64,000 nucleotides of DNA from NCBI GenBank assembly GCA_036253495.1, contig GCA_036253495.1_4125.1, one strand, 5' to 3'. The translations under genes and the position numbers were made by a program. Positions 4,737 to 24,169 of this stretch are shown here, piece after piece (the stretch's first letter is position 1; each line of letters starts with the position of its first letter). The stretch comes from a phage. The notes under the pieces were generated by a model. It was not told the origin of the DNA and ran no database searches. It saw nothing but the letters and a program-made list of their open reading frames with translations.

Positions 4737-4758
4737 ACCAATAAAAGGAAACAACATT

Positions 4759-5219: not shown

Positions 5220-5226
5220 AAAGTAC

Positions 5227-5288
5227 TTGCATTGTAGTTAGATTAAAGTATAATGTTTTATATCGAGAGGGGGAAATGGTTTCCCCTC
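5227..5288 (+). promoter_or_regulatory. early promoter + leader hairpin
   Basis: TTGCAT 5227-5232, N16, TATAAT 5249-5254; hairpin 5267-5288. Confidence 0.7.
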
Positions 5289-5306
5289 AAGTCCAGGAGA
5301 TACACC

Positions 5307-5570
5307 ATGAACACTATCGAAATCACTATTAATGCTCACGTATACGACAACGTAGTACTGCAAACTACTATGACCGCTAACGATACCAGTACTTTGCGGA
5401 ATACTGTTATAAGTGCTGTATGTGCCGCTATCGGTGATGTATCCCTGGAAAATGCAGAACACATCAACAACGGTTTCACTATGTGCAAACGTGATAACGC
5501 AAAACATATCATCGTAGAAGGTTACGGCGGTGTAGAATATAACCTTTATATGAAAAAAGTACTTGCATAG
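5307..5570 (+). CDS. hypothetical protein, 87 aa
   Basis: start re-set from 5253; SD CAGGAGA. Confidence 0.65.
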   Translation: MNTIEITINAHVYDNVVLQTTMTANDTSTLRNTVISAVCAAIGDVSLENAEHINNGFTMCKRDNAKHIIVEGYGGVEYNLYMKKVLA

Positions 5571-5619
5571 TAACTAAAACAAAGTATAATGTTTTGCATA
5601 GGGGGAGATATCCTCCCCC
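5563..5619 (+). promoter_or_regulatory. early promoter + leader hairpin
   Basis: TTGCAT 5563-5568, N16, TATAAT 5585-5590; hairpin GGGGGAG/CTCCCCC 5601-5619. Confidence 0.7.
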
Positions 5620-5638
5620 ACTAATAAGGAGTACTACG

Positions 5639-5863
5639 ATGGCTAATCATGATGAACTGATTCGGGAAGTAGCTAACCTGGCGGCAGAAAAGAAATCATT
5701 TGATTCTATCTATAACACCGCTCACCGTGATTCAGTACTGGCATGTAATCAGGATCAAAAAGATGAACTGATCGCAACCTATCATGAAGCATGGAAGTAT
5801 TACCGTCAATGGGAGAAAGAAGAAAAAGCATCAACCATAAGAGGATTAAATAATCTAGTATAA
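5639..5863 (+). CDS. hypothetical protein, 74 aa
   Basis: start re-set from 5594; SD AAGGAG. Confidence 0.65.
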   Translation: MANHDELIREVANLAAEKKSFDSIYNTAHRDSVLACNQDQKDELIATYHEAWKYYRQWEKEEKASTIRGLNNLV

Positions 5864-5915
5864 CAATAAAAGGGGATGATAATATCCCCTTAATAATTTC
5901 TATAATAGGTTAACA

Positions 5916-6182
5916 ATGAAAAAGAAAACAACATATCGCTATAATAAAAATTATCAATCCGTTGTATTAGATCACTCTATGCTCCCGCTCGTTGTCCCTG
6001 CCGTTGGTGTAGTCTATCAATCCATATACTGGTCAAGGAAACAACAAAAGTACTTAAAAGGCCCACTAGCACGTTATGAGGGTAACGGTGTATGGTCCGA
6101 TCCGTTACATCCAATCACTACGCGTTATATTGAATATTTTCCTTATTGTGACTACATTGAAATACATCCTAAATTTAATTGA
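5916..6182 (+). CDS. hypothetical protein, 88 aa (paralog of 6263..6520)
   Basis: shares LP(L/V)..P..G..Y......Y.GNG.W.DP..PI....DYIE pattern with next gene. Confidence 0.65.
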   Translation: MKKKTTYRYNKNYQSVVLDHSMLPLVVPAVGVVYQSIYWSRKQQKYLKGPLARYEGNGVWSDPLHPITTRYIEYFPYCDYIEIHPKFN

Positions 6183-6187
6183 TAGTA

Positions 6188-6241
6188 TTGACAGTACTAA
6201 CTGATAGTGTATAATGTTTTGCATAGGGGGAATACTCCCCC
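6188..6241 (+). promoter_or_regulatory. early promoter + leader hairpin
   Basis: TTGACA 6188-6193, N16, TATAAT 6210-6215; hairpin GGGGG/CCCCC 6226-6241. Confidence 0.7.
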
Positions 6242-6262
6242 AATATTAAAAGGGGAATCATC

Positions 6263-6520
6263 ATGGAACAATTCACACAATATCGGGTAAATCCTCAAGC
6301 TATGGCCTACGTAGAAGACCATAAAACGTTACCAGTACTGCAACCAGTTAAAGGCCGTATCTATCGTGGCCTTGCATGGAATACGGCCCAGGATGGATAT
6401 AAAACCGTTGCCGTGGGGATGTATTGCGGGAATGGTGAATGGTTTGATCCTAACAATCCGATTGCACTTGACAGTACTGAAAAAATGAAATGGGCCGACT
6501 ATATCGAGGATATCTCATAA
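6263..6520 (+). CDS. hypothetical protein, 85 aa (paralog of 5916..6182)
   Basis: track ORF; SD AAAGGGGAA. Confidence 0.7.
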   Translation: MEQFTQYRVNPQAMAYVEDHKTLPVLQPVKGRIYRGLAWNTAQDGYKTVAVGMYCGNGEWFDPNNPIALDSTEKMKWADYIEDIS

Positions 6521-6526
6521 AACTAT

Positions 6527-6587
6527 TTGACAGTACTATCATATAGTGTATAATGTTTTACATAGAGCGGGGGAATAGTTCTCCCGC
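6527..6587 (+). promoter_or_regulatory. early promoter + leader hairpin
   Basis: TTGACA 6527-6532, N16, TATAAT 6549-6554; hairpin 6567-6587. Confidence 0.7.
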
Positions 6588-6609
6588 CAATAGTTTGGAG
6601 TAAAACATT

Positions 6610-6810
6610 ATGTCAATCGCTATCGCCCTGGTTGAAGTACTGAAAGAAGCTAAAGCTAACCTGATCGACGTAAAGATCCAGGAACTACAATCCGGCTTAA
6701 TCGGCTGTACTTGTACCGCTGGTGGGGCGACAGATTATCGTGAATTCGAATCACTCGAATCTATGGTTCGGTATCTTACAATGATCGTGGAAGATTGGAA
6801 GATCATCTAA
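6610..6810 (+). CDS. hypothetical protein, 66 aa
   Basis: track ORF; SD TGGAG. Confidence 0.65.
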   Translation: MSIAIALVEVLKEAKANLIDVKIQELQSGLIGCTCTAGGATDYREFESLESMVRYLTMIVEDWKII

Positions 6811-6828
6811 CAAAAAAGAATAAAAAAA

Positions 6829-6861
6829 GGGATTGACTCCGGTCAGTCCCTTTGCTATTAT
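6829..6861 (+). terminator. hairpin terminator with embedded promoter
   Basis: hairpin 6829-6850 + TTT; TTGACT 6833-6838, N17, TATTAT 6856-6861. Confidence 0.55.
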
Positions 6862-6973
6862 ATACGCATAGACAAAAACTAGCCCACAGGGTGCATAGGT
6901 GTATCTAAAATATATAGTTAATAACGGTGAGTAACTATCTGCTGGTGGAGTGAAAACTATTAATAAAAAACTA

Positions 6974-7001
6974 TTGACAAAGTATAGCAGTACTGCAATA
7001 A
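6974..7001 (+). promoter_or_regulatory. sigma70-like promoter (weaker -10)
   Basis: TTGACA 6974-6979, N16, CAATAA 6996-7001. Confidence 0.5.
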
Positions 7002-7055
7002 TGTATCTCGTAGGGCGGCAATGGTGCGACGGTCCACAAAGTTAGGAGATTCAAA

Positions 7056-7388
7056 ATGAGTACTTCAATCGCTATCGTAAACGCTTTCATCCGTACCAAT
7101 GTTTCATCTGTATTCATTGACGGGCTGGATCGGGAAGTAGAATACTCAATCATTATCGCACAAACTGCAAACGGTGCTCGGTATATCCTCAATGATAGTG
7201 AAGCAAATCACTACTACTACACTAAAGCTACTGGCTTTAAACGCATCGATGCGGACGTAGTATACGCTAAGATGAATAAGCTGGTAGACAAGATTAACGC
7301 TAAAGGTACTATCGATTTACAGTACTGGACCGAAACCGATCCAGAATATGGATCACATCGCTACCTGAATCCAGGTATTAAAATGTAA
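7056..7388 (+). CDS. hypothetical protein, 110 aa
   Basis: track ORF; SD TAGGAGA. Confidence 0.7.
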   Translation: MSTSIAIVNAFIRTNVSSVFIDGLDREVEYSIIIAQTANGARYILNDSEANHYYYTKATGFKRIDADVVYAKMNKLVDKINAKGTIDLQYWTETDPEYGSHRYLNPGIKM

Positions 7389-7395
7389 AAAGTAC

Positions 7396-7457
7396 TTGCA
7401 TAGTACTTAGTAAAGTGTATAATGTTTTACATAGAGAGGGGGAAATGGTTCTCCCTC
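7396..7457 (+). promoter_or_regulatory. early promoter + leader hairpin
   Basis: TTGCAT 7396-7401, N16, TATAAT 7418-7423; hairpin 7436-7457. Confidence 0.7.
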
Positions 7458-7477
7458 CTAAATTAAGGAGTTTTATC

Positions 7478-7879
7478 ATGACCTTCTCAATCACTTCTTA
7501 CGCTGACGTTTTAGTACTGGCTCGGACTTTTGGTAAAGATGCACTGGAGTACGCTGTAAGTAATGGTACTATCCAACCGGAGCAGTGCCGCATCATTGGA
7601 AACTGCAAACGTTGGGCGGTATCCAATACTATTGCACTGGAAAACTTCAACGATGGCAACAATGAATATTCTGTTGATGTAGTATTCGAAGCCGTTGATC
7701 TCGGCGGTATCTATAACACTAACCTGAATGATGTGCGTATCGTTCGCACGGGGTTCGGTGCTTATGATGTATCTATTCGTGAAGCTATGAACACCGGATA
7801 CATTAGCAAGGACTTACTTGCTCACATCATGCAGCTGTGGACGGAACGTAACGAAGCACGCACTATCTTAGGACTGTAA
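7478..7879 (+). CDS. hypothetical protein, 133 aa
   Basis: start re-set from 7415; SD AAGGAG. Confidence 0.7.
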   Translation: MTFSITSYADVLVLARTFGKDALEYAVSNGTIQPEQCRIIGNCKRWAVSNTIALENFNDGNNEYSVDVVFEAVDLGGIYNTNLNDVRIVRTGFGAYDVSIREAMNTGYISKDLLAHIMQLWTERNEARTILGL

Positions 7880-7947
7880 GCATTACACATCACCAAACAT
7901 CATAGGCCGCTCTCTAGCGGCCTTAACTATATCAGGAGTACACACAC

Positions 7948-8157
7948 ATGATCTATACAGTATACAGCGTTCTAGGTACTATTGCAGGCGTACACGATAA
8001 CGTCAATGATGCTATGCGTACAGTACTGCAACAGGTTCCACTAAAGCCTAAGACTATTAAGCAGATGACAGCACGACTAACCAGGGCAAAGGCTGGCGGT
8101 GAAGTCTGGCAGGACTACGCGGATACGCAGATTATCATTGCAGTAAGTAATGATTAA
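7948..8157 (+). CDS. hypothetical protein, 69 aa
   Basis: track ORF; SD CAGGAG; preceded by hairpin AGGCCGC/GCGGCCT 7904-7923. Confidence 0.6.
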   Translation: MIYTVYSVLGTIAGVHDNVNDAMRTVLQQVPLKPKTIKQMTARLTRAKAGGEVWQDYADTQIIIAVSND

Positions 8158-8201
8158 TGAATTAAATGATTCAGTACTAAAACTATTAGTCAGAAAATAA
8201 T

Positions 8202-8230
8202 CGGTGCATTTTTAAAATGCATCGTTTTTT
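8202..8230 (+). terminator. rho-independent terminator closing the small-gene region
   Basis: CGGTGCATTT/AAATGCATCG stem followed by T6. Confidence 0.75.
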
Positions 8231-8339
8231 ATTTTAACCAGTACACTATAACGTATGAAATAGTTTCGACCTGTTATTATAACTTAGGGCAACTAGGGGC
8301 GGGTAATTGCTTAGCTCGTGTGAAGGGGTTCATAGGGTA

Positions 8340-8367
8340 TTGACTTTTTATATGAATCGTGTATTAT
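8340..8367 (+). promoter_or_regulatory. promoter of the family A array
   Basis: TTGACT 8340-8345, N16, TATTAT 8362-8367. Confidence 0.6.
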
Positions 8368-8397: not shown

Positions 8398-8595
8398 ATG
8401 CGTATTTTAACACAAGAAGAGCATCACGAAAGACTTATCAATAACATGGCTATGATAATGTATAAGTCTCATAAACGTGGTAATGCCTATAAACGTGAAT
8501 TAGTTATGGAACTATTCTTAGGAACTAACTTACAAAATGAATATGTTAAACTATATGTAAAAGAGTTATGTTTAGAGATAAATGGTAAACTATGA
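8398..8595 (+). CDS. family A (LGTNYQ-motif) paralog A1, 65 aa
   Basis: start re-set from 8359; SD AAGGGAG; motif FLGTNLQNEY; ATGA overlap with A2. Confidence 0.7.
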   Translation: MRILTQEEHHERLINNMAMIMYKSHKRGNAYKRELVMELFLGTNLQNEYVKLYVKELCLEINGKL

Positions 8596-8792
8596 AAATG
8601 CGTACATTAACTCAAGATGAATATCATCATATACTACGTAAAAACACGGCAAGAATTTACCAAAGCAATGTGCACTTAGAAAGAGTTGAGTTGTACCTGT
8701 TGATTACGATGGGAACAAACTATCAGGAAGTGTGGATAACTCACTATTTGGAATCTTTGAAAGCTGACATACGAGCTAGGAGAAAACTATGA
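8592..8792 (+). CDS. family A paralog A2, 66 aa
   Basis: motif TMGTNYQEVW; ATGA junctions; about 80% aa identity to A3. Confidence 0.75.
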   Translation: MKMRTLTQDEYHHILRKNTARIYQSNVHLERVELYLLITMGTNYQEVWITHYLESLKADIRARRKL

Positions 8793-8989
8793 AAATGCGT
8801 ACATTAACCGAAAAAGAATATCAAGCTCTACTACGTAAAAACATGGTAAGGATTTACCAAAGCGATGTGCACTTAGAAAGAGTTGAGTTGTACCTTTTGA
8901 TTACAATGGGAACCAACTATCAGGAAGCATTGATATCGAAATATTTGGAATCTTTGAAAGCTGACATACGAGCGAGGTGCAAACATTGA
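8789..8989 (+). CDS. family A paralog A3, 66 aa
   Basis: motif TMGTNYQEAL; long DNA stretches identical to A2. Confidence 0.75.
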   Translation: MKMRTLTEKEYQALLRKNMVRIYQSDVHLERVELYLLITMGTNYQEALISKYLESLKADIRARCKH

Positions 8990-9195
8990 AAATCATAACA
9001 CAGACACAAGCATTTGGTCGTATATTGAAATACCTTGATGACATGATAGATATACATAGTGACCTCCCTAAAACTGTAATCGACGCCAAAAGAGCAGAAT
9101 ATCGCATGATGGCTGTACTGAACACAAACTTTCAGGAAGAGTATGTCAATGATTGGATTGGATTTTTAATTGAAGATATAAAGAGTAAACTATGA
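8977..9195 (+). CDS. family A paralog A4 (non-ATG start)
   Basis: motif VLNTNFQEEY; GTG 8977 or, by family alignment, TTG 8986 forming TTGA overlap with A3 stop. Confidence 0.6.
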   Translation: MQTLKIITQTQAFGRILKYLDDMIDIHSDLPKTVIDAKRAEYRMMAVLNTNFQEEYVNDWIGFLIEDIKSKL

Positions 9196-9404
9196 TTATA
9201 TTAACACCAGAGCAATATAGGAAACGTTACAATTCTAAGCAGATTGAAATCTTGCTGATATATGCAGACAGGGATGATGTATACTTATCAAAAGTTATGG
9301 AAAAAGAATTACTTATGGGTGTCTTCTTAGGAACTGACCACCAGAAATCTTATGTCCAAGAGTATCTAATAGCTCTTGAGAAATACATCAGGAGTAAACT
9401 ATGA
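9192..9404 (+). CDS. family A paralog A5, 70 aa
   Basis: motif FLGTDHQKSY; ATGA overlap. Confidence 0.7.
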   Translation: MIILTPEQYRKRYNSKQIEILLIYADRDDVYLSKVMEKELLMGVFLGTDHQKSYVQEYLIALEKYIRSKL

Positions 9405-9625
9405 ACTGCATTAATAACTTTGAATACGAGGCTCGCTCAAGGTGTGCATCTCAAAAAGAGAACCACATTTACTTCACTATGATGTACTTATCTTGGAATG
9501 AAATTGAAGAAATGGTTGCTGAAGTATGGCTGTTTGAATTCATGGGGACGCAGTATCAGAATAGGTTTGTGGGTGAGTATCTTAATGTTCTTATGAAACA
9601 TATAGAAAGAAAGGGAATGAACTAA
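9401..9625 (+). CDS. family A paralog A6, 74 aa
   Basis: motif FMGTQYQNRF; ATGA overlap. Confidence 0.7.
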   Translation: MNCINNFEYEARSRCASQKENHIYFTMMYLSWNEIEEMVAEVWLFEFMGTQYQNRFVGEYLNVLMKHIERKGMN

Positions 9626-9876
9626 TGAAAGTATTATCAAGCACTGAGTATCAATCTGCCCTATTCTCTTTACTAAACACCCTTCGCAAGAACAATGAAC
9701 TTTATCCTTCCCCTGAGAATGATGTAGTTAATGGTGACGTGTTTCTACTTAAATTCGTTGGAACTAATAAACAAGATATCTTCACTGATCGTTATATCAA
9801 TGCACTAAGAAACCTTGTAGCGTATAAAACCCGCCAGGCCAAAAGAGAATGGAAGAGACAATGCGATCCAGAATAA
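9625..9876 (+). CDS. family A paralog A7, 83 aa
   Basis: motif FVGTNKQDIF; TAATG overlap. Confidence 0.7.
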   Translation: MKVLSSTEYQSALFSLLNTLRKNNELYPSPENDVVNGDVFLLKFVGTNKQDIFTDRYINALRNLVAYKTRQAKREWKRQCDPE

Positions 9877-10109
9877 ATCACATCATGTACGTTAAACTAT
9901 TTCAGAAACTAATCCACAAACACTATGATACAGTATCTGATAAACTCACTAATGATATCAGCAGACTTATTCACTGTGAAGCAGAGATGCTTGTACTGAT
10001 GACGGGAGACGATACACAAACAATCTCTAAGGCAATAGAGAACTATCTGGAAGCATATCAACAACATATAAGAACGGAAGTCTGGAGACGAGAGAATGAA
10101 AATCCTTAG
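9849..10109 (+). CDS. family A paralog A8 (divergent)
   Basis: degenerate motif LMTGDDTQTI; alternative start ATG 9861. Confidence 0.5.
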   Translation: MEETMRSRINHIMYVKLFQKLIHKHYDTVSDKLTNDISRLIHCEAEMLVLMTGDDTQTISKAIENYLEAYQQHIRTEVWRRENENP

Positions 10110-10311
10110 TGGGTATGAATATTACAGGCTGTTGCGAACTATACAAGCAAAAGTTTCTAGTATTTCTTTAAACAAATCTATTGCACAAGTGGACAAATGT
10201 GTTATAATAACTGAAATGAAGCTATCTATCTTCATTGGGACAAACTATCAAAGCATCTACACTGACGCATGGTTAGCAAGTCTACGTAACAAGGTGATAT
10301 CCAGAGAATGA
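10096..10311 (+). CDS. family A paralog A9, 71 aa
   Basis: motif FIGTNYQSIY. Confidence 0.7.
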   Translation: MKILSGYEYYRLLRTIQAKVSSISLNKSIAQVDKCVIITEMKLSIFIGTNYQSIYTDAWLASLRNKVISRE

Positions 10312-10526
10312 AAAAATTACAAGGTTTTGAATATATTAAGCTTCTGCAAACCTGTGAAATCCAAAGAAGAAAGATTCAAAAGGCTAAAAGAATTACCGCA
10401 GAACGAAAGTTTACACTGATAACTGAAGTCTATGTAGAGGCACTCTTAGGCACAAACTATCAACAAACGTATATAGACCTATGGATTGATGCACTCCAGA
10501 AAGAGGTTAAAAGTAAATGCAAATGA
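10308..10526 (+). CDS. family A paralog A10, 72 aa
   Basis: motif LLGTNYQQTY; ATGA overlap. Confidence 0.7.
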   Translation: MKKLQGFEYIKLLQTCEIQRRKIQKAKRITAERKFTLITEVYVEALLGTNYQQTYIDLWIDALQKEVKSKCK

Positions 10527-10741
10527 TTAATTTAAGTAAAGATGAATATTATGTACGTCTTGCAAAAACTTATTCATTACGCAAGGCCATTTATGAAAGT
10601 CACATTATTGAACAATCAAATAAGTGGATTGTAGTAAATGAAATCAAGATGCTTTCAGTCTTAGGAACAAACTATCAAGCGAGTGCTGTACTGAAGGTCA
10701 TTAATGCACTTCAAAATGAGGTCCAAAGTAAATGCAAATGA
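10517..10741 (+). CDS. family A paralog A11, 74 aa
   Basis: motif VLGTNYQASA; junction AAATGCAAATGA. Confidence 0.7.
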   Translation: MQMINLSKDEYYVRLAKTYSLRKAIYESHIIEQSNKWIVVNEIKMLSVLGTNYQASAVLKVINALQNEVQSKCK

Positions 10742-10995
10742 TCAATTTAAGTCAAGATGAATATAACGAGCGACTTGCAAAAATCTCACCTAAACGTAAT
10801 GCAATCTATCACAGCCAAGAAATTCAACACAGTAAGAAGATGATTATGTTTCGTGAGTTAAAGATGGGTGTCTTCTTAGGAACAAACTATCAAGAGACAG
10901 AAGTAAATCGCGTCATAACCGAGTTACTCATGGAAATCAGAGGTAAGCTGTACTTTCATCAAATGACCCAACCACTGAGGTGTAATGAGAAATGA
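10732..10995 (+). CDS. family A paralog A12, 87 aa
   Basis: motif FLGTNYQETE; junction AAATGCAAATGA; N-terminus close to A11. Confidence 0.7.
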   Translation: MQMINLSQDEYNERLAKISPKRNAIYHSQEIQHSKKMIMFRELKMGVFLGTNYQETEVNRVITELLMEIRGKLYFHQMTQPLRCNEK

Positions 10996-11228
10996 ATAAA
11001 ATTAATAACATCAACTTAGCAGAAAGATTTGATAGAATTGGGGAAGCTCTGAGAAGATACGATAAAGCATATGGTCATTTAAGCTTTACCATAGAAACGA
11101 GATATGCCCTTGAAGAAGAGTTTAAAATGCATAGTCTCTTAGGCACACAGTATCAAAAACAATATGTTCAAAAATGGATTGAATGTTTAATCCAAACAAT
11201 TCATGTGAGGAACATAAAATGCAAATGA
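10992..11228 (+). CDS. family A paralog A13, 78 aa
   Basis: motif LLGTQYQKQY; ATGA overlap. Confidence 0.7.
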   Translation: MNKINNINLAERFDRIGEALRRYDKAYGHLSFTIETRYALEEEFKMHSLLGTQYQKQYVQKWIECLIQTIHVRNIKCK

Positions 11229-11473
11229 TATACTTAACAGACGATGAAATAAAAGAAAGAATAATTAAATCCAGAAAACATACAAATCAACTGCCAAAAG
11301 ACCCAAATCAAACCCCTGCTGAAAGGAGTGCAGAAGTATTATATCAACAACTCCTGTACTTTCTTGGAACTGATAGACAGGATTATTATGTTCGATCGAT
11401 TCTTAGATATCTTAAAATGACTATTCAGGAAAAGATACATGACCAAATATATAAAAATCTTAACAGTCAATGA
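11219..11473 (+). CDS. family A paralog A14, 84 aa
   Basis: start re-set from 11183 to the MQM start at the AAATGCAAATGA junction; motif FLGTDRQDYY. Confidence 0.65.
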   Translation: MQMIYLTDDEIKERIIKSRKHTNQLPKDPNQTPAERSAEVLYQQLLYFLGTDRQDYYVRSILRYLKMTIQEKIHDQIYKNLNSQ

Positions 11474-11690
11474 ATATCATAAGATTATCATGAAGACTAA
11501 TATTGAGAATTCTAAAAAATCAAATACCAAGTACATTCTGGAACACACATTTGAAGAACGACAATTAGCTTTAGTTGAAGCAAAACTTCTTGCACTATTA
11601 GGGACTAACTATCAAGACGAGTACGTAAGAAAACTAATATACCTTTTAACTAAACACATCAGGAAAAGAAATGCAGCACTTGACAGATGA
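11439..11690 (+). CDS. family A paralog A15, 83 aa
   Basis: motif LLGTNYQDEY. Confidence 0.7.
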   Translation: MTKYIKILTVNEYHKIIMKTNIENSKKSNTKYILEHTFEERQLALVEAKLLALLGTNYQDEYVRKLIYLLTKHIRKRNAALDR

Positions 11691-11880
11691 CGAATACGGT
11701 GTTATCATCCTTGATGTTATCAATAAAGAATACCATAGGAAACAACGATACGCTTGTTATGAAGATAAACAGCTTTCTATAGCTGAACAACAATTAGTTC
11801 ATTTATTAGGAACAAACTATCAAGAACAATGCACTGAACGTTACCTGTATCTACTGTCGAGGAAAACACAAAGATTATGA
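11671..11880 (+). CDS. family A paralog A16, 69 aa
   Basis: motif LLGTNYQEQC. Confidence 0.7.
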   Translation: MQHLTDDEYGVIILDVINKEYHRKQRYACYEDKQLSIAEQQLVHLLGTNYQEQCTERYLYLLSRKTQRL

Positions 11881-12092
11881 AAATTTTAAGCGAAGGTGAT
11901 GAAGTAATATTACTTATAGAGAATTCAAGTAAATTCTTAAACATATCACTGTCTGATATAGATGAAGATGACAAAGAAGTACTGAGAGCAGATTTAAGAG
12001 TACTGTTACATCTCGGAACAAACCTACAAGAACAATTTGTTGAGGACTACATCAATGAACTTAAAGAATCAGTACTGAGAAGATGCAAATGA
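11877..12092 (+). CDS. family A paralog A17, 71 aa
   Basis: motif HLGTNLQEQF; ATGA overlap. Confidence 0.7.
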   Translation: MKILSEGDEVILLIENSSKFLNISLSDIDEDDKEVLRADLRVLLHLGTNLQEQFVEDYINELKESVLRRCK

Positions 12093-12325
12093 AAATCATT
12101 TCACCTACTGAATACAACCAACTATTAAGTAGTTTAATTCCAAAGTTGCATCGTAGCTGGTCAGCAGAATTATCACAGGATGAAAAAAATATTCTAATAA
12201 GTGAAATCTATGTTCTAGCTACTATAGGAACTAACTATCAAGAACACATCATCGTGGATTATATTAATACACTTAAAAGGGTAATACAATTAAAATGCAC
12301 AGACAGCACATACACAAACCCCTAG
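12083..12325 (+). CDS. family A paralog A18, 80 aa
   Basis: motif TIGTNYQEHI; junction GATGCAAATGA. Confidence 0.7.
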   Translation: MQMKIISPTEYNQLLSSLIPKLHRSWSAELSQDEKNILISEIYVLATIGTNYQEHIIVDYINTLKRVIQLKCTDSTYTNP

Positions 12326-12525
12326 GAACAGCAGAATACATTGAACTAATGGCAGCAAACTTCTCATCCTTTCAGAAACTGAGGCAAGAATCAAATAATG
12401 ATTTAGAATATCATATCAAAAGTTCAGATTTAAGATTGTTACTCACTCTAGGAACAGACAGTCAGTACAAATTCGTACAGGAGCATATTAGAGCACTTTT
12501 AAATGGCATCAGGGATAAACTATGA
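12295..12525 (+). CDS. family A paralog A19, 76 aa
   Basis: motif TLGTDSQYKF. Confidence 0.65.
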   Translation: MHRQHIHKPLGTAEYIELMAANFSSFQKLRQESNNDLEYHIKSSDLRLLLTLGTDSQYKFVQEHIRALLNGIRDKL

Positions 12526-12737
12526 AGGAAATATCAAATCAAGAGTACTTGGCACTATTCAGAAAAAATAAGAAAGAATTTATTGTACTTGATACAAGAA
12601 CTGATATAGGGGAACTTGAAAAAAATCTTTTGCGTTCAGATATGATAGTACTGATACTCTTAGGAACACAGCATCAAGAAAGAACTGTTAATTCACACAT
12701 AGAAATACTTAAGAAGCTTATACAGGAAAAGTTATGA
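12522..12737 (+). CDS. family A paralog A20, 71 aa
   Basis: motif LLGTQHQERT; ATGA overlap. Confidence 0.7.
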   Translation: MKEISNQEYLALFRKNKKEFIVLDTRTDIGELEKNLLRSDMIVLILLGTQHQERTVNSHIEILKKLIQEKL

Positions 12738-12955
12738 GAATCATAACACAAAAAGATATGTTTAAGTTAGCAAGGGATCATGCATCTGAAATTGATGCTA
12801 TAGTATCAAAAAGTTACAATGACCCTTATACACAAGATGTACACTACAATGAATTATGGGTGTATATACTTTTAGATACAAATTATCAAGAGCAAGCAGT
12901 ACAGAGGTATTTGAGTGCTTTAAGTACTGCTACTGCTAATGGAATAGGTGTTTAA
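12734..12955 (+). CDS. family A paralog A21, 73 aa
   Basis: motif LLDTNYQEQA; ATGA overlap. Confidence 0.7.
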   Translation: MRIITQKDMFKLARDHASEIDAIVSKSYNDPYTQDVHYNELWVYILLDTNYQEQAVQRYLSALSTATANGIGV

Positions 12956-12957
12956 AA

Positions 12958-13299
12958 ATGAAAACTAATATTCAACTTAAGGTTTATAAATCATTTGCAA
13001 GTACATATATCAAATGCAGTCTATGTAAAGATGTAATGGACTACAAAGGTAAGCCATTCACGATTACTTACGATTCTACAAGAGGTTTTTATATATCTTT
13101 TGCTGATTACAAATATAACATGTACGAACACATTGACATTGAAGATTTAAGTACTTTATCTGAAGAAGAATACTTTCAAGAATCATTAGTATGGGATTTA
13201 GAGTTTCCTATGCCATTGGTACATAAGATGATAGTACTAATAAAAGAAACTAAACAGGAGCCTAATAGTGCTTATGAAGAACACATTATTGAGTACTGA
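12958..13299 (+). CDS. family B (FQ-motif) paralog B1, short form, 113 aa
   Basis: motif EEEYFQESLVWD. Confidence 0.75.
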   Translation: MKTNIQLKVYKSFASTYIKCSLCKDVMDYKGKPFTITYDSTRGFYISFADYKYNMYEHIDIEDLSTLSEEEYFQESLVWDLEFPMPLVHKMIVLIKETKQEPNSAYEEHIIEY

Positions 13300-13302
13300 A
13301 CC

Positions 13303-13533
13303 ATGAAAAGATTATCATTCGAAGAGTACTGCAAGCTTATTAATACTTTACAACCACAAATAAAACAAATAAATTCTCTTCCTATATCCCAAGAAGAACG
13401 TGCAGTACTGAAAGATGAGTTAATTTTAAAATGCACAGTAGGTACTAACTATCAAGCTGATAGTGTTCGTTATCTAATTTGGGGTTTAATGTGCATAATA
13501 GAGAACAAAGCAGTTGACAGTACTCTAATGTAG
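13303..13533 (+). CDS. family A paralog A22, 76 aa
   Basis: motif TVGTNYQADS. Confidence 0.7.
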   Translation: MKRLSFEEYCKLINTLQPQIKQINSLPISQEERAVLKDELILKCTVGTNYQADSVRYLIWGLMCIIENKAVDSTLM

Positions 13534-13542
13534 TGCTATAGT
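13514..13542 (+). promoter_or_regulatory. sigma70-like promoter
   Basis: TTGACA 13514-13519, N17, TATAGT 13537-13542. Confidence 0.6.
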
Positions 13543-13582
13543 GTCAGTACTTTTTCGAGCGTTAAAATATAGGGTACAGATT

Positions 13583-13828
13583 ATGTTAAAATTTTTAAAT
13601 TTCCTTATCGTCTTGTGTATTGTTCTTGGGATTGCACCGTTTGTATTAGCGTATCTGGATTCAGATGAAATGCACAAGATGAATTGCACAAAGACAGGAC
13701 AGAGTAGAAAAGAGACGGTTATGATGCCCGTAACGGTTATTGTGAATAACATGCCGATTACAAACATGGTCCCTACCCTAACGACAACGTACCAGTACTC
13801 TTGTGATGACGGAGAGAGGTGGAGATAA
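13583..13828 (+). CDS. small membrane-anchored protein, 81 aa
   Basis: start re-set from 13541; N-terminal MLKFLNFLIVLCIVLGIAPFVLAYL hydrophobic helix. Confidence 0.55.
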   Translation: MLKFLNFLIVLCIVLGIAPFVLAYLDSDEMHKMNCTKTGQSRKETVMMPVTVIVNNMPITNMVPTLTTTYQYSCDDGERWR

Positions 13829-13835
13829 TGCGATA

Positions 13836-14162
13836 ATGCGTAAGATCAATTGTATAAAAAGAGCGAATACATGTTTCATTGCGTTGACCAATGTACCGGG
13901 TGGGTCTGGTGTTAAGATATTTGAGTACAATAAAGTTGATAATTGTTTCTATTGGGTAGAAGGTATCAAATCATATGAAAATACGATAGCAGTACCGAAT
14001 CTAGTTGATATCTCTGAAGAAGAAGAGTTTCAGTACATGTTAGTACACGATGATTCTTTTGGGTTGACATACAAAGAGATGAAGGAAGTACAAAGGCAGA
14101 TGATATCATGTATGAATATTTCTAAGCATTTCCTTCAAAATATTCATCCAATTTACGTATAA
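13836..14162 (+). CDS. family B paralog B2, short form, 108 aa
   Basis: motif EEEEFQYMLVHD; ATG 13836 chosen by alignment with B1/B3 N-termini (track GTG 13803). Confidence 0.65.
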   Translation: MRKINCIKRANTCFIALTNVPGGSGVKIFEYNKVDNCFYWVEGIKSYENTIAVPNLVDISEEEEFQYMLVHDDSFGLTYKEMKEVQRQMISCMNISKHFLQNIHPIYV

Positions 14163-14171
14163 GAGATTAAT

Positions 14172-14507
14172 ATGAAATTCAACATTCATAGAATTAATTC
14201 CGGTTGTATATTTGCTTATACGCATGAGAATTACAAGAAGTACATGAATCATGAAGTACATTATGTTTTTGAGGACGGTAAAGAATATTTTGCTTATTTG
14301 AGTCCCAGGAGTTTAGGTAAGTACGAGTTGCTTCAGGATCTTTCTCTTATGCAGGAAGATGAATTATTTCAGTACAGTCTAATTCATGACCCTTATATGT
14401 TTGATATAGATATTATGTGCAGTTTACAGAAGAGGATGAAAGAAGTTTGGGATTCGATTAAAAGAGGTGATTGTATAGAATATGATAGTATACAAGAAGA
14501 TGCCTAA
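14172..14507 (+). CDS. family B paralog B3, short form, 111 aa
   Basis: motif EDELFQYSLIHD. Confidence 0.75.
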   Translation: MKFNIHRINSGCIFAYTHENYKKYMNHEVHYVFEDGKEYFAYLSPRSLGKYELLQDLSLMQEDELFQYSLIHDPYMFDIDIMCSLQKRMKEVWDSIKRGDCIEYDSIQEDA

Positions 14508-14700
14508 CGGATATGAATTGAAGTACAGACATTTTATTCGAAATGTAGATTCAGATCCTTTTAATGTTAAAATGGCAGAGTTCGATTTATTATTTTATCT
14601 AGGAACGAGAGCACAGCCACAATTCGTTGATGCATACATAAGGGCTTTACGAACAGAGATAGTATGCACACCAAAGGAGTCTAAATGTACAAAAATGTAA
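14500..14700 (+). CDS. family A paralog A23, 66 aa
   Basis: motif YLGTRAQPQF; ATG 14500 fits family length (track 14482). Confidence 0.6.
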   Translation: MPNGYELKYRHFIRNVDSDPFNVKMAEFDLLFYLGTRAQPQFVDAYIRALRTEIVCTPKESKCTKM

Positions 14701-14942
14701 ACCATCATTTGTACGCATCAAAGTACAGGGATTTTTGTTTACAAGGGGGCGATGAAGATTTTGCTTTGCGATTATCGGAATTTAATATGTTATTTTATCT
14801 TGGTACATCAGTACAAGAAGAAATGGTACAGAAATTTATCAAGCACCTTGAACGAAAAATTCATACGCAAATTTTGGTTGTTAAGTTACAGAATGAGATA
14901 AATGAATACAATGCAGAATCTAACAATAGTACAGGATCTTAG
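14685..14942 (+). CDS. family A paralog A24, 85 aa
   Basis: motif YLGTSVQEEM. Confidence 0.65.
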   Translation: MYKNVNHHLYASKYRDFCLQGGDEDFALRLSEFNMLFYLGTSVQEEMVQKFIKHLERKIHTQILVVKLQNEINEYNAESNNSTGS

Positions 14943-15303
14943 ACCAGTAATAATGATGTTAAATGCAAGACGAGATTTATGGCACGAAATGCATAACAAG
15001 AAGGATTCATTTGCACAAATCAATTTAGTCTTTCAGGAGTTAATCCAGAGTGCATTGGATGTTATTGAACCAAAATACAAAGATGGTATATTCTGTGTAA
15101 AGAATGCAGTTCGTCCTCATGCAATTCCAAGGAAAATTAAGTTAGCTAGATTAACATTTGACGAGAGGGATTTCTTCAGTTATAATCCCAGTACAGCTTT
15201 ATATTTTATTCCTGATTCAGACAAATATCATCCTATCCATTACGGATGGATTATGTCTTATATAGTAAATGAAACGGAATACCCTATTAAATGGGAAAGA
15301 TGA
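14902..15303 (+). CDS. hypothetical protein, about 130 aa (start uncertain)
   Basis: track ORF; no family motif. Confidence 0.55.
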   Translation: MNTMQNLTIVQDLRPVIMMLNARRDLWHEMHNKKDSFAQINLVFQELIQSALDVIEPKYKDGIFCVKNAVRPHAIPRKIKLARLTFDERDFFSYNPSTALYFIPDSDKYHPIHYGWIMSYIVNETEYPIKWER

Positions 15304-15479
15304 TGATAGATGTTAAGACATTAAATGCATTACAGGATTCATTATTAGATAGTATTAAGCTGTATTACAATATGCATTTGAGGGGTGGTATCAATGATTA
15401 CAATTATTATTTGAGTGTAATTATATTTGAGCATCTTTCAGTACAGGATAGAATTTTACACAAGTACAAACATTATTGA
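15300..15479 (+). CDS. hypothetical small protein, 59 aa
   Basis: ATG 15300 gives ATGA overlap with upstream stop (track 15291). Confidence 0.5.
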   Translation: MMIDVKTLNALQDSLLDSIKLYYNMHLRGGINDYNYYLSVIIFEHLSVQDRILHKYKHY

Positions 15480-15490
15480 GGAAACAAAAT

Positions 15491-15850
15491 ATGTTCAATA
15501 AAATCATGTTCATTTTAACATTTGTGTTTTTATCATTCACAAACACCGCTCATGCAGTACATGCAGAACAGGCATCATCGGATGTACCGTTATATGAAAC
15601 ATACAAATTTGATTGCAGATTGCAGAATAATGAAATAATCAATATCTTTTTACACAATACAGAAGTACCTTATTTGCAGATTGAAGCAACGAAGTACATG
15701 TATTATGGTACGAATTCGGTACAGGAATTTTTATTCAAACACACCAATCAGGATGTAATTATATCATTGCAGTACGTTGATAGTTCATTGTCTTTAATGC
15801 ATTTCAAGAATGCAGAGGGATTAGTTACAGTGCTCAAATGCTATAGGTAA
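15491..15850 (+). CDS. secreted/periplasmic protein with signal peptide, 119 aa
   Basis: SD GAGGA; MFNKIMFILTFVFLSFTNTAHA then VHAEQ (AxA-type cleavage site). Confidence 0.65.
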   Translation: MFNKIMFILTFVFLSFTNTAHAVHAEQASSDVPLYETYKFDCRLQNNEIINIFLHNTEVPYLQIEATKYMYYGTNSVQEFLFKHTNQDVIISLQYVDSSLSLMHFKNAEGLVTVLKCYR

Positions 15851-15856
15851 TAATAT

Positions 15857-23214: not shown

Positions 23215-23748
23215 ATGATTATTGATGCTTACAATGCTGAGGAAATGCAGGAATTATCTCGTAAAATCAACATTATAGTTCCTTTGCTTAAGGATTGCAG
23301 TACTGGTTTGATTCCATCACGAGACATTATTAAAGAAGGATACTACCTACAGGCAGTCTATAAGGGTGGTACATTTCATCGTTGTCGTGTATTACGTGAT
23401 GGCCTTCCTGCACTTACACTCATTGGTATTGGTATTGCCTTATGCGGTACGAACCGTTTGTACTTGAATGAAAAAAATCAAATCATGAATTTGTTTTATA
23501 CAGGAAAAAGTACTGAATTATATTTTGGTATTCAGAACTGGTGGGATACAGTAAAGAGTAGTACTATTGAAATCCCAAAATACAATTACAACGCATTTGA
23601 AGAGCAGATGTTTCAATTGTCATGTACAGATGACATGTACATGATTCTACGTCTATATATGGAGATGCAAATGAACTTCAGAAGTAATTTATACATTGAT
23701 ACTTCAACATTTGAATTCGAAGATGTATTCGTTGATGGTATACTATGA
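23215..23748 (+). CDS. family B paralog B17, long form, 177 aa
   Basis: motif EEQMFQLSCTDD; C-term LYIDTSTFEF. Confidence 0.75.
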   Translation: MIIDAYNAEEMQELSRKINIIVPLLKDCSTGLIPSRDIIKEGYYLQAVYKGGTFHRCRVLRDGLPALTLIGIGIALCGTNRLYLNEKNQIMNLFYTGKSTELYFGIQNWWDTVKSSTIEIPKYNYNAFEEQMFQLSCTDDMYMILRLYMEMQMNFRSNLYIDTSTFEFEDVFVDGIL

Positions 23749-23972
23749 AGTATATTCCAAAACACCAGTACTACAGGATGTGTTCTGACATTTACACAAA
23801 ATGGAATACATTTCATCCCCTTTTGAAGAAGAGGCGTCCATATCATGATTACAAGTTGAATCATTTTCTTGGAACTAATTATCAAGAGGTTGTGATGAAA
23901 GATTACATTTTTAACCTTCAGAAATTAATTCAGAATAAAGTTCAAGGAAAGGGGGAGTCACCGTGGGTATAA
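23745..23972 (+). CDS. family A paralog A25, 75 aa
   Basis: motif FLGTNYQEVV; ATGA overlap. Confidence 0.7.
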   Translation: MKYIPKHQYYRMCSDIYTKWNTFHPLLKKRRPYHDYKLNHFLGTNYQEVVMKDYIFNLQKLIQNKVQGKGESPWV

Positions 23973-24169
23973 GACACAGAGACATGCAAGATATTCTTAA
24001 CCAATACAGTGCTCAAATGTTCACTGCAATCAGGTCTTCCAATCAAAATGACGTGTCGGAATTACAGTTACTGATGTACATAGGGACACAATACCAGGAG
24101 GCTTCAGTTGAGACGTATATTAAGTACCTATTGGGTATTATAAGGATGAAAAATGGACAATACTTTTGA
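23963..24169 (+). CDS. family A paralog A26
   Basis: motif YIGTQYQEAS; GTG 23963 or ATG 23984. Confidence 0.6.
   Translation: MGIRHRDMQDILNQYSAQMFTAIRSSNQNDVSELQLLMYIGTQYQEASVETYIKYLLGIIRMKNGQYF

What the first reader, a model, noticed from the sequence alone, without database searches (positions are those of the whole stretch)
8398..12955. Tandem array of 21 translationally coupled 65-85 aa paralogs with an LGTNYQ core (26 copies in the window): an unrecognised gene family
Twenty-one consecutive ORFs run behind one promoter (8340-8367). Five dispersed copies lie at 13303, 14500, 14685, 23745 and 23963. All share one plan. It starts M(K/R)xL(T/S)xxEYxxLL, has a variable middle, then a hydrophobic helix ending in (L/F/M)(L/M)GT(N/Q/D)(Y/x)Q(E/x), and finishes with xx(V/I)xxY(I/L)xxL(K/R)xxI. 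Identity ranges from about 80% (A2 versus A3) to motif-only. Nearly all junctions are start/stop overlaps. I recognise no known domain. The helix-GT-turn-helix layout could be a small HTH-like or protein-binding module. Such a dense array of tiny diversified paralogs inside a phage is unusual. It is the pattern expected for an arms-race family such as anti-defence, decoy, or modulators of a multi-variant host target.
Basis: seen in the sequence. Interest (0 to 1): 0.8.

Follow-up and report, generated by a model that had tools for sequence, protein, structure and literature searches.

The report
Early small-protein gene array, jumbo coliphage
A giant E. coli phage carries 26 diverged copies of one tiny helical protein gene, 21 of them overlapping head to tail just after its terminal repeat; the array had been mentioned in one sentence before, but its function is still unknown and its predicted fold matches no solved structure.

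Summary
A family profile finds exactly 26 members, all on the + strand: 21 in tandem (8398-12955) plus copies at 13303, 14482, 14685, 23745 and 23963. All 20 junctions are start/stop overlaps.

By collinearity with phage fEgEco12, the array is the first operon after the roughly 21-kb direct terminal repeat. It sits behind a conserved sigma70-type promoter. Klebsiella RaK2-like phages keep about 5 copies at the same place, so Asteriusvirus holds an expansion of 20-28 tandem copies.

Paralogs are old: 26-51% identical, and mostly saturated at synonymous sites. They are kept as positional orthologs, with 15 lineages present in all 7 genomes compared. dN/dS is 0.38, against 0.17 for the adjacent repeat genes. 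Phage A4 lost one unit by unequal crossover.

The most likely function, which is inferred, is an early co-translated battery of small protein-binding host modulators. The HTH reading is not supported and the arms-race reading is untested. The array was noted in one sentence in 2017.

The parts
8202..8224 (+). Terminator-like hairpin followed by a T-run. It closes the last gene unit of the terminal repeat (7948-8157).
   Evidence: 10-bp stem, then TTTTTTATTT
8296..8315 (.). Inferred right boundary of the left direct terminal repeat (about 8310). It lies inside a conserved GC-rich block, GGGGCGGGTAATTGC|TTAGC.
   Evidence: The fEgEco12 repeat is 20,993 bp by PhageTerm and restriction digests (PMC13070987). 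That position was mapped onto the window by alignment. The boundary was not measured for this phage.
8340..8367 (+). Sigma70-type promoter-like site, TTGACT-16-TATTAT, for the array
   Evidence: The -35 and -10 elements are conserved in fEgEco12, 121Q, CRJP21, phAPEC6, L007 and the divergent contig L012.
8386..8392 (+). Shine-Dalgarno AAGGGAG of the first array gene, within a conserved 5' leader
8398..8595 (+). array gene 1 (65 aa)
   Evidence: HMM E 2e-18; 100% identical to its A4 ortholog
8592..8792 (+). array gene 2 (66 aa)
   Evidence: 79% identical to gene 3
8789..8989 (+). array gene 3 (66 aa). Genes 2 and 3 are the only part detectable as a DNA tandem repeat (8587-8993, period 197, 87% match).
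   Evidence: A4 has one chimeric copy in place of genes 2 and 3.
8986..9195 (+). array gene 4 (69 aa from TTG 8986; alternative GTG start at 8977)
9192..9404 (+). array gene 5 (70 aa)
9401..9625 (+). array gene 6 (74 aa)
9625..9876 (+). array gene 7 (83 aa)
9861..10109 (+). array gene 8 (82 aa; alternative start at 9849). This is the most aberrant member: the motif reads TGDDTQT.
10096..10311 (+). array gene 9 (71 aa)
10308..10526 (+). array gene 10 (72 aa), the member whose structure was modelled
   Evidence: AlphaFold2 pLDDT 97.3, pTM 0.82
10517..10741 (+). array gene 11 (74 aa; alternative start at 10523)
10732..10995 (+). array gene 12 (87 aa; alternative start at 10738)
10992..11228 (+). 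array gene 13 (78 aa)
11219..11473 (+). array gene 14 (84 aa; alternative start at 11225)
11439..11690 (+). array gene 15 (83 aa)
11671..11880 (+). array gene 16 (69 aa). It contains a possible internal promoter at 11680-11708 (TTGACA-17-TATCAT).
   Evidence: Orthologs keep TTGACA-17-TATAGT at the same place.
11877..12092 (+). array gene 17 (71 aa), the most acidic member (pI 4.5)
12083..12325 (+). array gene 18 (80 aa; alternative start at 12089)
12295..12525 (+). array gene 19 (76 aa)
12522..12737 (+). array gene 20 (71 aa)
12734..12955 (+). array gene 21 (73 aa), the last tandem copy
13303..13533 (+). dispersed copy 22 (76 aa)
   Evidence: E 1e-22
14482..14700 (+). dispersed copy 23 (72 aa; alternative start at 14500)
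   Evidence: E 8e-18
14685..14942 (+). dispersed copy 24 (85 aa)
   Evidence: E 4e-17
23745..23972 (+). dispersed copy 25 (75 aa)
   Evidence: E 4e-10 with a seed that did not include it
23963..24169 (+). dispersed copy 26 (68 aa, GTG start)
   Evidence: E 3e-10 with a seed that did not include it

Best explanation
The array is an expansion, specific to the Asteriusvirus lineage, of a small soluble helical-bundle protein family (phrog_4148). The family is confined to RaK2-like jumbo phages.

Shown:
- The window holds 21 tandem and 5 dispersed genes of this family.
- Stop and start codons overlap at every junction, and each Shine-Dalgarno sequence is embedded in the C-terminal codons of the preceding gene.
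- The proteins share a scaffold and have very different surfaces.
- The genes are under purifying selection, but it is relaxed compared with the adjacent repeat genes.
- Most paralog lineages are older than the genus and are kept as positional orthologs.
- Copy number changes by unequal crossover between neighbouring units.

Inferred from synteny and from a conserved promoter:
- The array is the first operon of the unique region, about 30 nt beyond the end of the roughly 21-kb left direct terminal repeat.
- Host RNA polymerase transcribes it early, and the products are made in roughly equal amounts by translational coupling.

Inferred function: each paralog is a small binding module for a different intracellular partner, so the array is a battery of host-takeover or counter-defence modulators. 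The conserved LGTNYQ region is mainly structural. It sits in the H3-H4 loop and is tied to residue 2 by a beta-bridge. Specificity would lie in the variable exposed positions.
For: Family and coupling:
-.

Real coding genes:
- dN/dS is 0.37-0.39 (95% CI 0.32-0.46) against four phages.
- The AlphaFold2 model has pLDDT 97.3.
- The N-terminal domain of P0159 was modelled independently at pLDDT 90-98 with the same beta-bridge.

Scaffold versus surface:
- Positions with pN/pS of 0.2 or less are Y9, I20, E40, L43, F46, T49, N50, Q52, Y55, Y59, L63, I67 and K70.
- Positions at 0.7-1.3 lie between them, which is what exposed helix faces would give.
- Net charge runs from -7 to +8.

Old, retained paralogs:
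- Orthologs are 50-97% identical, against 26-51% for paralogs.
- 162 of 210 paralog pairs are saturated at synonymous sites.
- 33 clusters were found, 15 of them present in all 7 genomes.

Unequal crossover:
- The single A4 copy is a chimera of gene 2 and gene 3 and carries the flank of gene 3.

Position:
- The fEgEco12 repeat is 20,993 bp by experiment, and its array starts at 21,091.
- Window 112-8154 is collinear with fEgEco12 13,158-20,841 at 92% amino-acid identity.
- In Klebsiella phage Muenster the first two genes after the annotated repeat (1-20,030) are family members.

Early timing:
- The sigma70-like promoter is conserved.
- In A4 an insertion removed that promoter, yet TTGACA-17-TATGAT lies just upstream of gene 1.
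- The adjacent repeat region carries eight perfect sigma70 consensus promoters.
- The related phage PA5oct depends on host RNA polymerase and transcribes its repeat genes early (PMC7318152).

Not structural:
- None of gp467c-gp489c is in the phAPEC6 virion proteome.
Against: - There is no expression or interaction data for any member, so both timing and function are inferred.
- No similarity to any known anti-defence, antitoxin or host-takeover protein was found.
- Stable 1:1 orthology and overall purifying selection are not the signature of a fast arms race.
- Q52 is invariant, and G48, T49 and L63 are at least 90% conserved across 116 diverse members. These residues could form a shared functional site rather than being purely structural. 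I could not inspect coordinates to decide.
- Tight equimolar coupling would also suit subunits of one complex.
- Conservation of the C-terminal residues is confounded by the embedded SD and start codon of the next gene.
Confidence: 0.45

Rival explanations
1. The paralogs are subunits of one hetero-oligomeric assembly, such as a ring, filament or lattice. Each lineage would occupy a fixed place, as in Lsm rings, CCT or the proteasome. Translational coupling would set the equal stoichiometry.
For: All junctions overlap and carry embedded SD sequences. 15 lineages are kept 1:1 in all 7 genomes. Orthologs are far more alike than paralogs, which is the pattern seen in paralog-built heteromers.
Against: The tandem copy number varies from 20 to 28 between close relatives, and A4 lost one unit. 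Alcyoneusvirus manages with about 5 scattered copies. Orthologs are only about 70% identical and their surfaces vary. The monomer model is self-contained (pTM 0.82). No multimer prediction could be run.
Confidence: 0.1
2. The proteins are small nucleic-acid-binding regulators (HTH-like), each tuning transcription or translation at different sites.
For: They are small and helical. The median pI is 8.5, and several members have a net charge of +4 to +8. Basic residues recur in the last helix. The genes lie in an early regulatory region of the genome.
Confidence: 0.1
3. The array is largely redundant duplicated DNA. It would be retained because a larger capsid tolerates or needs extra genome length (the genome-expansion ratchet of Hua et al. 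2017), and the individual copies would have no distinct functions.
For: This is the only published comment on such arrays. Copy number varies and unequal crossover is ongoing. dN/dS is about twice that of the neighbouring genes.
Against: dN/dS is 0.38 with an upper confidence limit of 0.46, well below 1. The fold-defining residues survive although synonymous sites are saturated between paralogs. 15 lineages are retained in all 7 genomes. The promoter, SD sequences and overlaps are maintained, and a promoter is present again after an insertion in A4.
Confidence: 0.12
4. The proteins act as immunity or antitoxin-like inhibitors in phage-phage or phage-satellite competition, or against the phage's own toxic early proteins, rather than against host targets. 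Each paralog would neutralise one toxin variant.
For: Arrays of small diversified helical inhibitors are typical of immunity-gene clusters (my own knowledge, not tested here). The neighbouring repeat regions of related phages are annotated with toxin/antitoxin-like genes: a YeeU-like antitoxin and a YafQ-like toxin in Muenster. Several other expanded paralog families lie just downstream in the window.
Confidence: 0.13

Closest known systems
The orthologous array in other Asteriusvirus phages (121Q gp319-341, phAPEC6 gp467c-489c, fEgEco12 g057-g084, PBECO4, A4); family phrog_4148
   Same: It is the same protein family (E 1e-10 to 1e-20 to phrog_4148). It occupies the same position after the same upstream genes, behind the same promoter, and its members are collinear positional orthologs.
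   Different: This phage has 21 tandem copies, against 20 in A4, 23 in 121Q and 26-28 in the others. Amino-acid identity to orthologs outside A4 is only about 70%. All of them are annotated as hypothetical proteins, and none has been studied.
Distant members in Klebsiella RaK2-like phages (Alcyoneusvirus: RaK2, K64-1, Muenster, phiKp_21)
   Same: They have the same domain, with the LGT-x-x-Q core. The first genes after the annotated terminal repeat are family members.
   Different: There are only about 5 copies. They are separated by intergenic spacers and other genes rather than overlapping. Some carry an extra C-terminal extension of about 50 aa.
Multigene families and 'genomic accordions' near the termini of large linear dsDNA viruses (African swine fever virus MGF110/360/505, poxvirus host-range genes). 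This comparison rests on my own knowledge.
   Same: Both are tandem paralog arrays next to terminal repeats. In both, copy number changes by unequal recombination (observed here between A4 and the window). Both evolve faster than the neighbouring core genes.
   Different: Those are eukaryotic viruses with unrelated proteins, and their families are known to antagonise host immunity. No function has been shown here. Most lineages here are old and stable rather than recently amplified.
Host-takeover modules in or next to terminal repeats of virulent phages (T5 pre-early genes, SPO1 gp37-60; PA5oct repeat genes, PMC7318152)
   Same: Both consist of many small non-structural genes at the leading end of the genome with host-type promoters. 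In PA5oct the repeat genes are highly transcribed early, and the phage relies on host RNA polymerase.
   Different: Those modules are made of unrelated genes, mostly with their own promoters. The repeat part of this window (1-8300) is organised that way too. The array instead is one family, overlapping gene to gene, and lies just outside the repeat.
[quoted passage not shown] 2017, PMC5646251)
   Same: It was reported in the same sentence as the 121Q array, as evidence for genome growth by tandem duplication.
   Different: I did not examine the phage G genes. No relationship to phrog_4148 is known, and none appeared in the exhaustive profile search.

Membership tests
phrog_4148 (PHROGs, unknown function) | Significant match to the family profile over most of its length | tested here: met
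   Nine members were tested. E values run from 2e-6 to 4e-20, covering profile positions 1 to about 72 of 74. Distant members also match.
Helix-turn-helix DNA-binding domains | Sequence or fold match to a known HTH family | tested here: not met
Helix-turn-helix DNA-binding domains | Tight 3-4 residue turn between two helices, with a uniformly basic surface | tested here: not met
   The H3-H4 connection is 6 residues and includes a beta-bridge to residue 2. pI ranges from 4.5 to 9.7.
Viral multigene family expanded by tandem duplication (genomic accordion) | Three or more paralogs in head-to-tail tandem | tested here: met
   21 consecutive members
Viral multigene family expanded by tandem duplication (genomic accordion) | Copy-number differences between close relatives caused by unequal homologous recombination | tested here: met
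   Related phages carry 20-28 tandem copies. The single A4 copy is a chimera of gene 2 and gene 3 with the downstream flank of gene 3, which is an exact one-unit deletion.
Viral multigene family expanded by tandem duplication (genomic accordion) | Adaptive role against host defences, with recent amplification under selection | not testable with these tools
   Only indirect data exist. dN/dS is 0.38 against 0.17 for the neighbours. Most duplications are ancient.
Translationally coupled operon | Stop/start overlaps, an SD inside the upstream gene, and no internal terminators | tested here: met
   All 20 junctions overlap, and 19 of 26 starts have an SD-like motif (p = 4e-11). No terminator-like site lies on the + strand between 8224 and 15233.
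Translationally coupled operon | Translation of each downstream gene depends on translation of the upstream gene | not testable with these tools
   This needs reporter fusions or ribosome profiling.
Known anti-defence proteins (anti-CRISPR, anti-restriction, nucleotide sponges such as Acb2/Vs.4, Tad) | Homology or fold similarity to a characterised member | tested here: not met
   Nothing significant was found in the PDB. T4 Vs.4 appears only as noise (E 4.6, rmsd 16.8). BFVD returns only the family itself. No anti-defence profile library was available.
Early (host RNA polymerase-dependent) phage genes | Conserved sigma70-type promoter and a position at the leading end of the genome | tested here: met
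   TTGACT-16-TATTAT is conserved. The array starts about 90 nt beyond the inferred repeat end.
Early (host RNA polymerase-dependent) phage genes | Transcripts present in the first minutes of infection and sensitive to rifampicin | not testable with these tools
   I found no Asteriusvirus transcriptome. The only data are by analogy with PA5oct.

The most novel reading that the evidence does not exclude
The family could be a phage-encoded repertoire built on one scaffold. The invariant residues (Q52, with T49, G48 and L63 at 90% or more, and E40 in most members) would form a constant face that docks onto a single hub, for example a host protease, the RNA polymerase or a phage enzyme. The hypervariable faces of the 15 or more retained lineages would each recruit or block a different target. 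That would make the array an adaptor library. The fusions of the module to unrelated C-terminal domains in some phages (P0159, P0156) fit a modular docking domain. A related reading that is also not excluded is a hetero-oligomer assembled from the paralogs.
Probability: 0.1. Interest if true: 0.85.

Novelty: new member of a known kind. Interest (0 to 1): 0.5.

Why it matters
About 83% of the genes of these 350-kb phages have no known function. This one family makes up about 4-5% of the gene count.

The analysis here shows four things about it:
- It sits exactly at the start of the unique region, beyond the terminal repeat.
- It is conserved there across two genera.
- It comprises at least 15 long-retained lineages.
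- Its confidently predicted fold has no solved relative.

Together these turn a one-line remark about genome padding into a testable hypothesis about early host manipulation. If the members bind distinct host proteins, the array would be a ready-made set of small inhibitors of E. coli functions or defences. It would also be a bacterial-virus counterpart of the terminal multigene families of poxviruses and African swine fever virus.

If deletion of the array has no phenotype, that would support the genome-size ratchet view of jumbo phage evolution.

Tried and rejected
1. Known domains. Pfam was run on all 26 members. Each weak hit occurred in a single member only, so these are chance matches. 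PADLOC gave the same result.

2. Solved structures by sequence. Profiles of 26 and of 116 sequences found nothing.

3. Fold searches.
- Foldseek against the PDB had a best E of 2.4.
- BFVD returned only the family itself.
- The afdb50 library was not available.

4. More distant relatives.
- An exhaustive HMMER search of 1.84 billion representatives gave 98 hits. All were the same small family, except one spurious eukaryotic repeat protein (P0125) and two fusion proteins.
- A wider 116-sequence profile added no annotated relatives.

5. The fusion protein P0159 as a functional clue.
- Its C-terminal domain has homologs only in RaK2-like phages and no Pfam match.
- No further homologs turned up.
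- AlphaFold modelled that domain at a pLDDT of about 50, which is unusable.
- The domain is absent from the window.

6. Weak profile hits at 51-62 kb and a shared N-terminal TxxEYxxL motif in other ORFs. These are not family members and not enriched: 7 of 166 + strand ORFs against 2 of 110 - strand ORFs.

7. A repeated extended promoter motif. The extended array promoter sequence does not recur elsewhere in the window.

8. RNA genes. No Rfam family and no tRNA was found.

9. Origin in an E. coli chromosome. There is no match in complete E. coli genomes.

10. Positive selection per column. No column clearly exceeds pN/pS = 1. The maximum was 1.26, apart from the sparsely populated last column. 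The sequence pairs used are not independent.

Full report
**Observation**

The region 8398-12955 contains 21 consecutive + strand ORFs of 65-87 aa. A profile HMM built from 24 of the copies was run on every stop-to-stop segment of all six frames. It recovers 26 members and nothing else. The seeds score E = 1e-16 to 1e-27. The two copies not used in the seed (23745-23972 and 23963-24169) score about 3e-10, and the next hit has E = 0.2 (repeated with all 26).

The family alignment gives the consensus MKxLxxxEY...ExxLLxxLGTNYQ...YIxxLxxxI. T49 is invariant, and Q52 and L63 are at least 90% conserved. All 20 junctions inside the array are overlaps: eleven of 4 nt (ATGA), the others of 1-35 nt. An SD-like 4-mer lies 4-17 nt upstream of 19 of 26 starts, against a 15% background in the array (p = 4e-11).

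The recurrent junction ..AGGAGTAAACTATGA.. encodes the C-terminal ..RSKL* of one gene together with the SD and ATG of the next. Part of the conserved C-terminus is therefore dual-coding. At the DNA level only copies 2 and 3 still register as a tandem repeat (8587-8993, period 197, 87% match). The corrections are ambiguous starts for seven genes and a second promoter-like site inside the array.

**What genome this is**

The region is 96.5% identical to Escherichia phage A4. It is 81-84% identical, over only 68-87% of its length, to about 35 other Asteriusvirus jumbo phages of E. coli and Salmonella, including 121Q, PBECO4 and phAPEC6. All the genes are annotated as hypothetical proteins. There is no match in complete E. 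coli genomes.

**Is the family known?**

- It matches phrog_4148, whose function is unknown, at E = 2e-6 to 4e-20.
- No Pfam family recurs among the 26 members, and PADLOC gives nothing.
- Sequence profiles of 26 and of 116 members find no solved structure.
- An exhaustive HMMER search of 1.84 billion cluster representatives returns 98 proteins. All are 50-121 aa with the same motif, except a spurious eukaryotic repeat protein and one 269-aa fusion.
- A broader profile against 5.8 billion proteins adds no named or Pfam-annotated relative.
- AlphaFold2 with the 26-sequence alignment gives a very confident model: pLDDT 97.3, pTM 0.82. It has helices at 6-15, 17-25, 31-45 and 52-71, and a beta-bridge between residues 2 and 49.

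In the literature, Hua et al. [quoted passage not shown] The phAPEC6 paper and a 2026 review repeat the remark. Neither source names the genes. That it is this array is my inference, since this is the largest tandem family in the region. No function has been proposed beyond genome expansion.

**Genomic position**

Phage fEgEco12 has a 20,993-bp direct terminal repeat, found by PhageTerm and confirmed by restriction digests (PMC13070987). Phage Sharanji has one of 20,668 bp. In fEgEco12 the last repeat gene ends at 20,841 and the array starts at 21,091.

Window 112-8154 is collinear with fEgEco12 13,158-20,841 at 92% amino-acid identity. The repeat end therefore maps to about window position 8310. 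It falls inside a conserved GC-rich block. That position lies between a terminator-like hairpin (8202-8224) and the promoter-like site TTGACT-16-TATTAT (8340-8367).

The promoter and the leader with its SD (AAGGGAG) are conserved in six other genomes, including a divergent metagenomic relative. In A4 a 272-aa endonuclease-like gene has replaced the native promoter. Even so, TTGACA-17-TATGAT lies directly upstream of gene 1.

The repeat part of the window has a different architecture. It consists of short genes, each with its own promoter. There are eight perfect TTGACA-16/17-TATAAT sites and 48 promoter-like sites, against 29.3 +/- 4.5 in shuffles. There are also 13 terminator-like sites against 5.4 +/- 2.5 in shuffles.

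In Klebsiella phage Muenster (Alcyoneusvirus) the annotated repeat is 1-20,030. The first two genes beyond it are family members, and about three more lie within the next 10 kb. The placement 'repeat end, then this family' therefore predates the split of the two genera, and Asteriusvirus carries an expansion.

The related phage PA5oct depends on host RNA polymerase and transcribes its repeat genes early (PMC7318152). None of gp467c-489c is among the 62 phAPEC6 virion proteins. Early, non-structural expression is therefore the best inference, but it is not shown.

**Evolution**

The tandem copy number is 21 here, 20 in A4, 23 in 121Q, 28 in fEgEco12, CRJP21 and phAPEC6, and about 26 in a Salmonella phage and in an assembly contig.

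Members are collinear positional orthologs. Reciprocal best hits between phages are 50-97% identical, whereas paralogs within the window are 26-51% identical, apart from copies 2 and 3 at 79%. Synonymous sites are saturated in 162 of 210 paralog pairs. The 195 members from seven genomes form 33 clusters at 50% identity or more. Fifteen clusters are present in all seven genomes, and most of those are single-copy.

| Gene set | dN/dS | 95% CI | Amino-acid identity | dS |
|---|---|---|---|---|
| Array genes, concatenated, against four phages | 0.37-0.39 | 0.32-0.46 | about 70% | 0.46-0.56 |
| 19 adjacent repeat genes | 0.17 | 0.14-0.21 | 92% | 0.25 |

All values in the table are. dS per gene in the array ranges from 0.02 to 1.7, which points to mosaic recombination.

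The single A4 copy at positions 2/3 matches gene 2 at informative sites 21-152 and gene 3 from site 185 onward, and it is followed by the flank of gene 3. Copies 2 and 3 differ by dS 0.25, whereas A4 and the window differ by 0.03. A4 therefore lost exactly one 197-bp unit by unequal crossover.

Per-column pN/pS separates two classes of position.
- Constrained, at 0.2 or below: Y9, I20, E40, L43, F46, T49, N50, Q52, Y55, Y59, L63, I67 and K70.
- Variable, at 0.7-1.3: positions 5, 11, 17-19, 22, 25, 32, 39, 44-45, 53-54, 57-58, 64 and 71.

No column shows clear positive selection. Net charge ranges from -7 to +8, and pI from 4.5 to 9.7.

**Interpretation**

The data establish a real, expressed-looking protein family with one conserved scaffold and strongly diversified surfaces. 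Many distinct lineages are kept, and the genes are arranged for coupled, equimolar translation from a host-type promoter at the leading edge of the unique genome.

The conserved LGTNYQ segment lies in the H3-H4 loop, which is tied to the N-terminus by a beta-bridge. Much of its conservation is therefore probably structural. A Gly at the C-cap of H3 and an Asn/Gln cap for H4 are my inference and were not checked on coordinates.

I consider a battery of small protein-binding modulators of host processes, for takeover or counter-defence, the most likely function. My confidence is about 0.45 for that functional class and about 0.9 for the descriptive part.

The rivals are:
- subunits of a hetero-oligomer;
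- nucleic-acid-binding regulators;
- largely redundant padding;
- immunity-like inhibitors in competition between phages.

The HTH idea fails the tests available. The padding idea is weakened by dN/dS well below 1, by long-term retention of lineages, and by maintained expression signals. The arms-race idea is neither confirmed nor excluded. The family evolves about twice as fast as its neighbours and changes copy number, but it looks more like a stable toolkit than a family in rapid turnover.

In some phages the module is fused to other domains. P0159 in phages EC.P1 and UB carries a roughly 180-aa domain that stands alone in RaK2-like phages. P0156 and a Muenster gene carry a roughly 50-aa extension. 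This is a weak hint that it is a modular docking domain.

**Novelty and verdict**

This is a new member, from a new phage close to A4, of an array that is already catalogued and was briefly noted in print. It is not an unrecognised family. Its function is unknown, and its predicted fold has no solved relative.

New here are:
- the placement at the terminal-repeat boundary, conserved across two genera;
- the core of at least 15 retained lineages;
- the selection contrast with the neighbouring genes;
- the embedded-SD coupling;
- the direct trace of unequal crossover.

Interest is moderate at 0.5. The array is a good experimental target but not a surprise in kind.

Noticed in passing
window 1-8300: This part is collinear with the last 8 kb of the 21-kb direct terminal repeat of fEgEco12, at 92% amino-acid identity. 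It has an immediate-early look: short genes with their own promoters, and eight perfect TTGACA-16/17-TATAAT sites on the + strand (695, 1034, 1302, 1732, 4184, 4678, 6188, 6527). There are 48 promoter-like sites against 29.3 +/- 4.5 in shuffles, and 13 terminator-like sites against 5.4 +/- 2.5.
   Followed up: partly
window 444-471, 3748-3775, 6826-6853 (+): A perfect 28-nt hairpin, AAAGGGATTGACTCCGGTCAGTCCCTTT, followed by GCTATTATAT, occurs three times. A -35-like TTGACT sits inside the stem and a -10-like TATTAT follows. This could be a structured or regulated promoter, or a combined terminator and promoter.
   Followed up: no
window 8296-8315: A GC-rich block, GGGGCGGGTAA, is conserved in all related phages although the genome is AT-rich. 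It coincides with the mapped end of the terminal repeat in fEgEco12, so it is a candidate terminus-processing site.
   Followed up: partly
L001 3099-3917 (phage A4, between the repeat end and array gene 1); L014 5012-5833 (Klebsiella phage phiKp_21): A 272/273-aa endonuclease-like ORF (phrog_681, E 3e-10; no Pfam hit) sits at exactly this site in A4 and in a Klebsiella RaK2-like phage. The two proteins are 45% identical (E 5e-77). The ORF is absent from the window and from most relatives, as expected for a mobile homing-endonuclease-like gene that targets the repeat boundary. In A4 it replaces the native array promoter.
   Followed up: partly
window 12958-32400 (+): Several other paralog families lie downstream of the array. 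One has 6 members (21308, 21792, 22235, 28523, 29002, 30579). One has 4 members (12958, 20098, 25426, 25839). One has 3 members (14172, 16362, 28104). There are also pairs at 22696/27279 and 18795/26180. Farther on there is a tandem family of 5 at 49232-50580. None of the downstream ORFs tested has a Pfam match. This region is only 25-60% identical in protein to fEgEco12, so it is a hypervariable accessory zone.
   Followed up: partly
window 11680-11708 (+): A promoter-like site, TTGACA-17-TATCAT with an upstream TG, lies inside array gene 16. Orthologs in five other phages keep TTGACA-17-TATAGT despite amino-acid changes. The -35 element is the Leu-Thr codon pair of the N-terminal motif. It may be an internal promoter.
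   Followed up: partly
L007 10001-10810 (E. coli assembly contig; same gene in phages EC.P1 and UB): P0159 is a 269-aa protein in which the family domain is fused to a roughly 180-aa domain. That domain is a separate gene in RaK2, K64-1 and related Klebsiella phages (40% identity). The gene lies just downstream of the array. The C-terminal domain could not be modelled (pLDDT about 50).
   Followed up: partly
L006 about 3000-3060 (Salmonella phage SD-15_S21): In this record about 70 bp, including the array promoter and leader, are missing. The first array gene follows almost directly after the conserved GC-rich block. This could be a real deletion or an assembly artefact.
   Followed up: no
L010 (metagenome contig, GC 29%): A more distant, unclassified phage contig carries six family members interspersed among 150-200-aa genes. 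The family therefore reaches beyond the two named genera, and again occurs in several copies.
   Followed up: no
whole window: Coding is almost entirely on the + strand: 193 + strand ORFs of at least 45 aa cover 67.7 kb of ORF length, against 21.3 kb of short - strand ORFs. There are no tRNA genes and no Rfam families in the 64 kb.
   Followed up: yes
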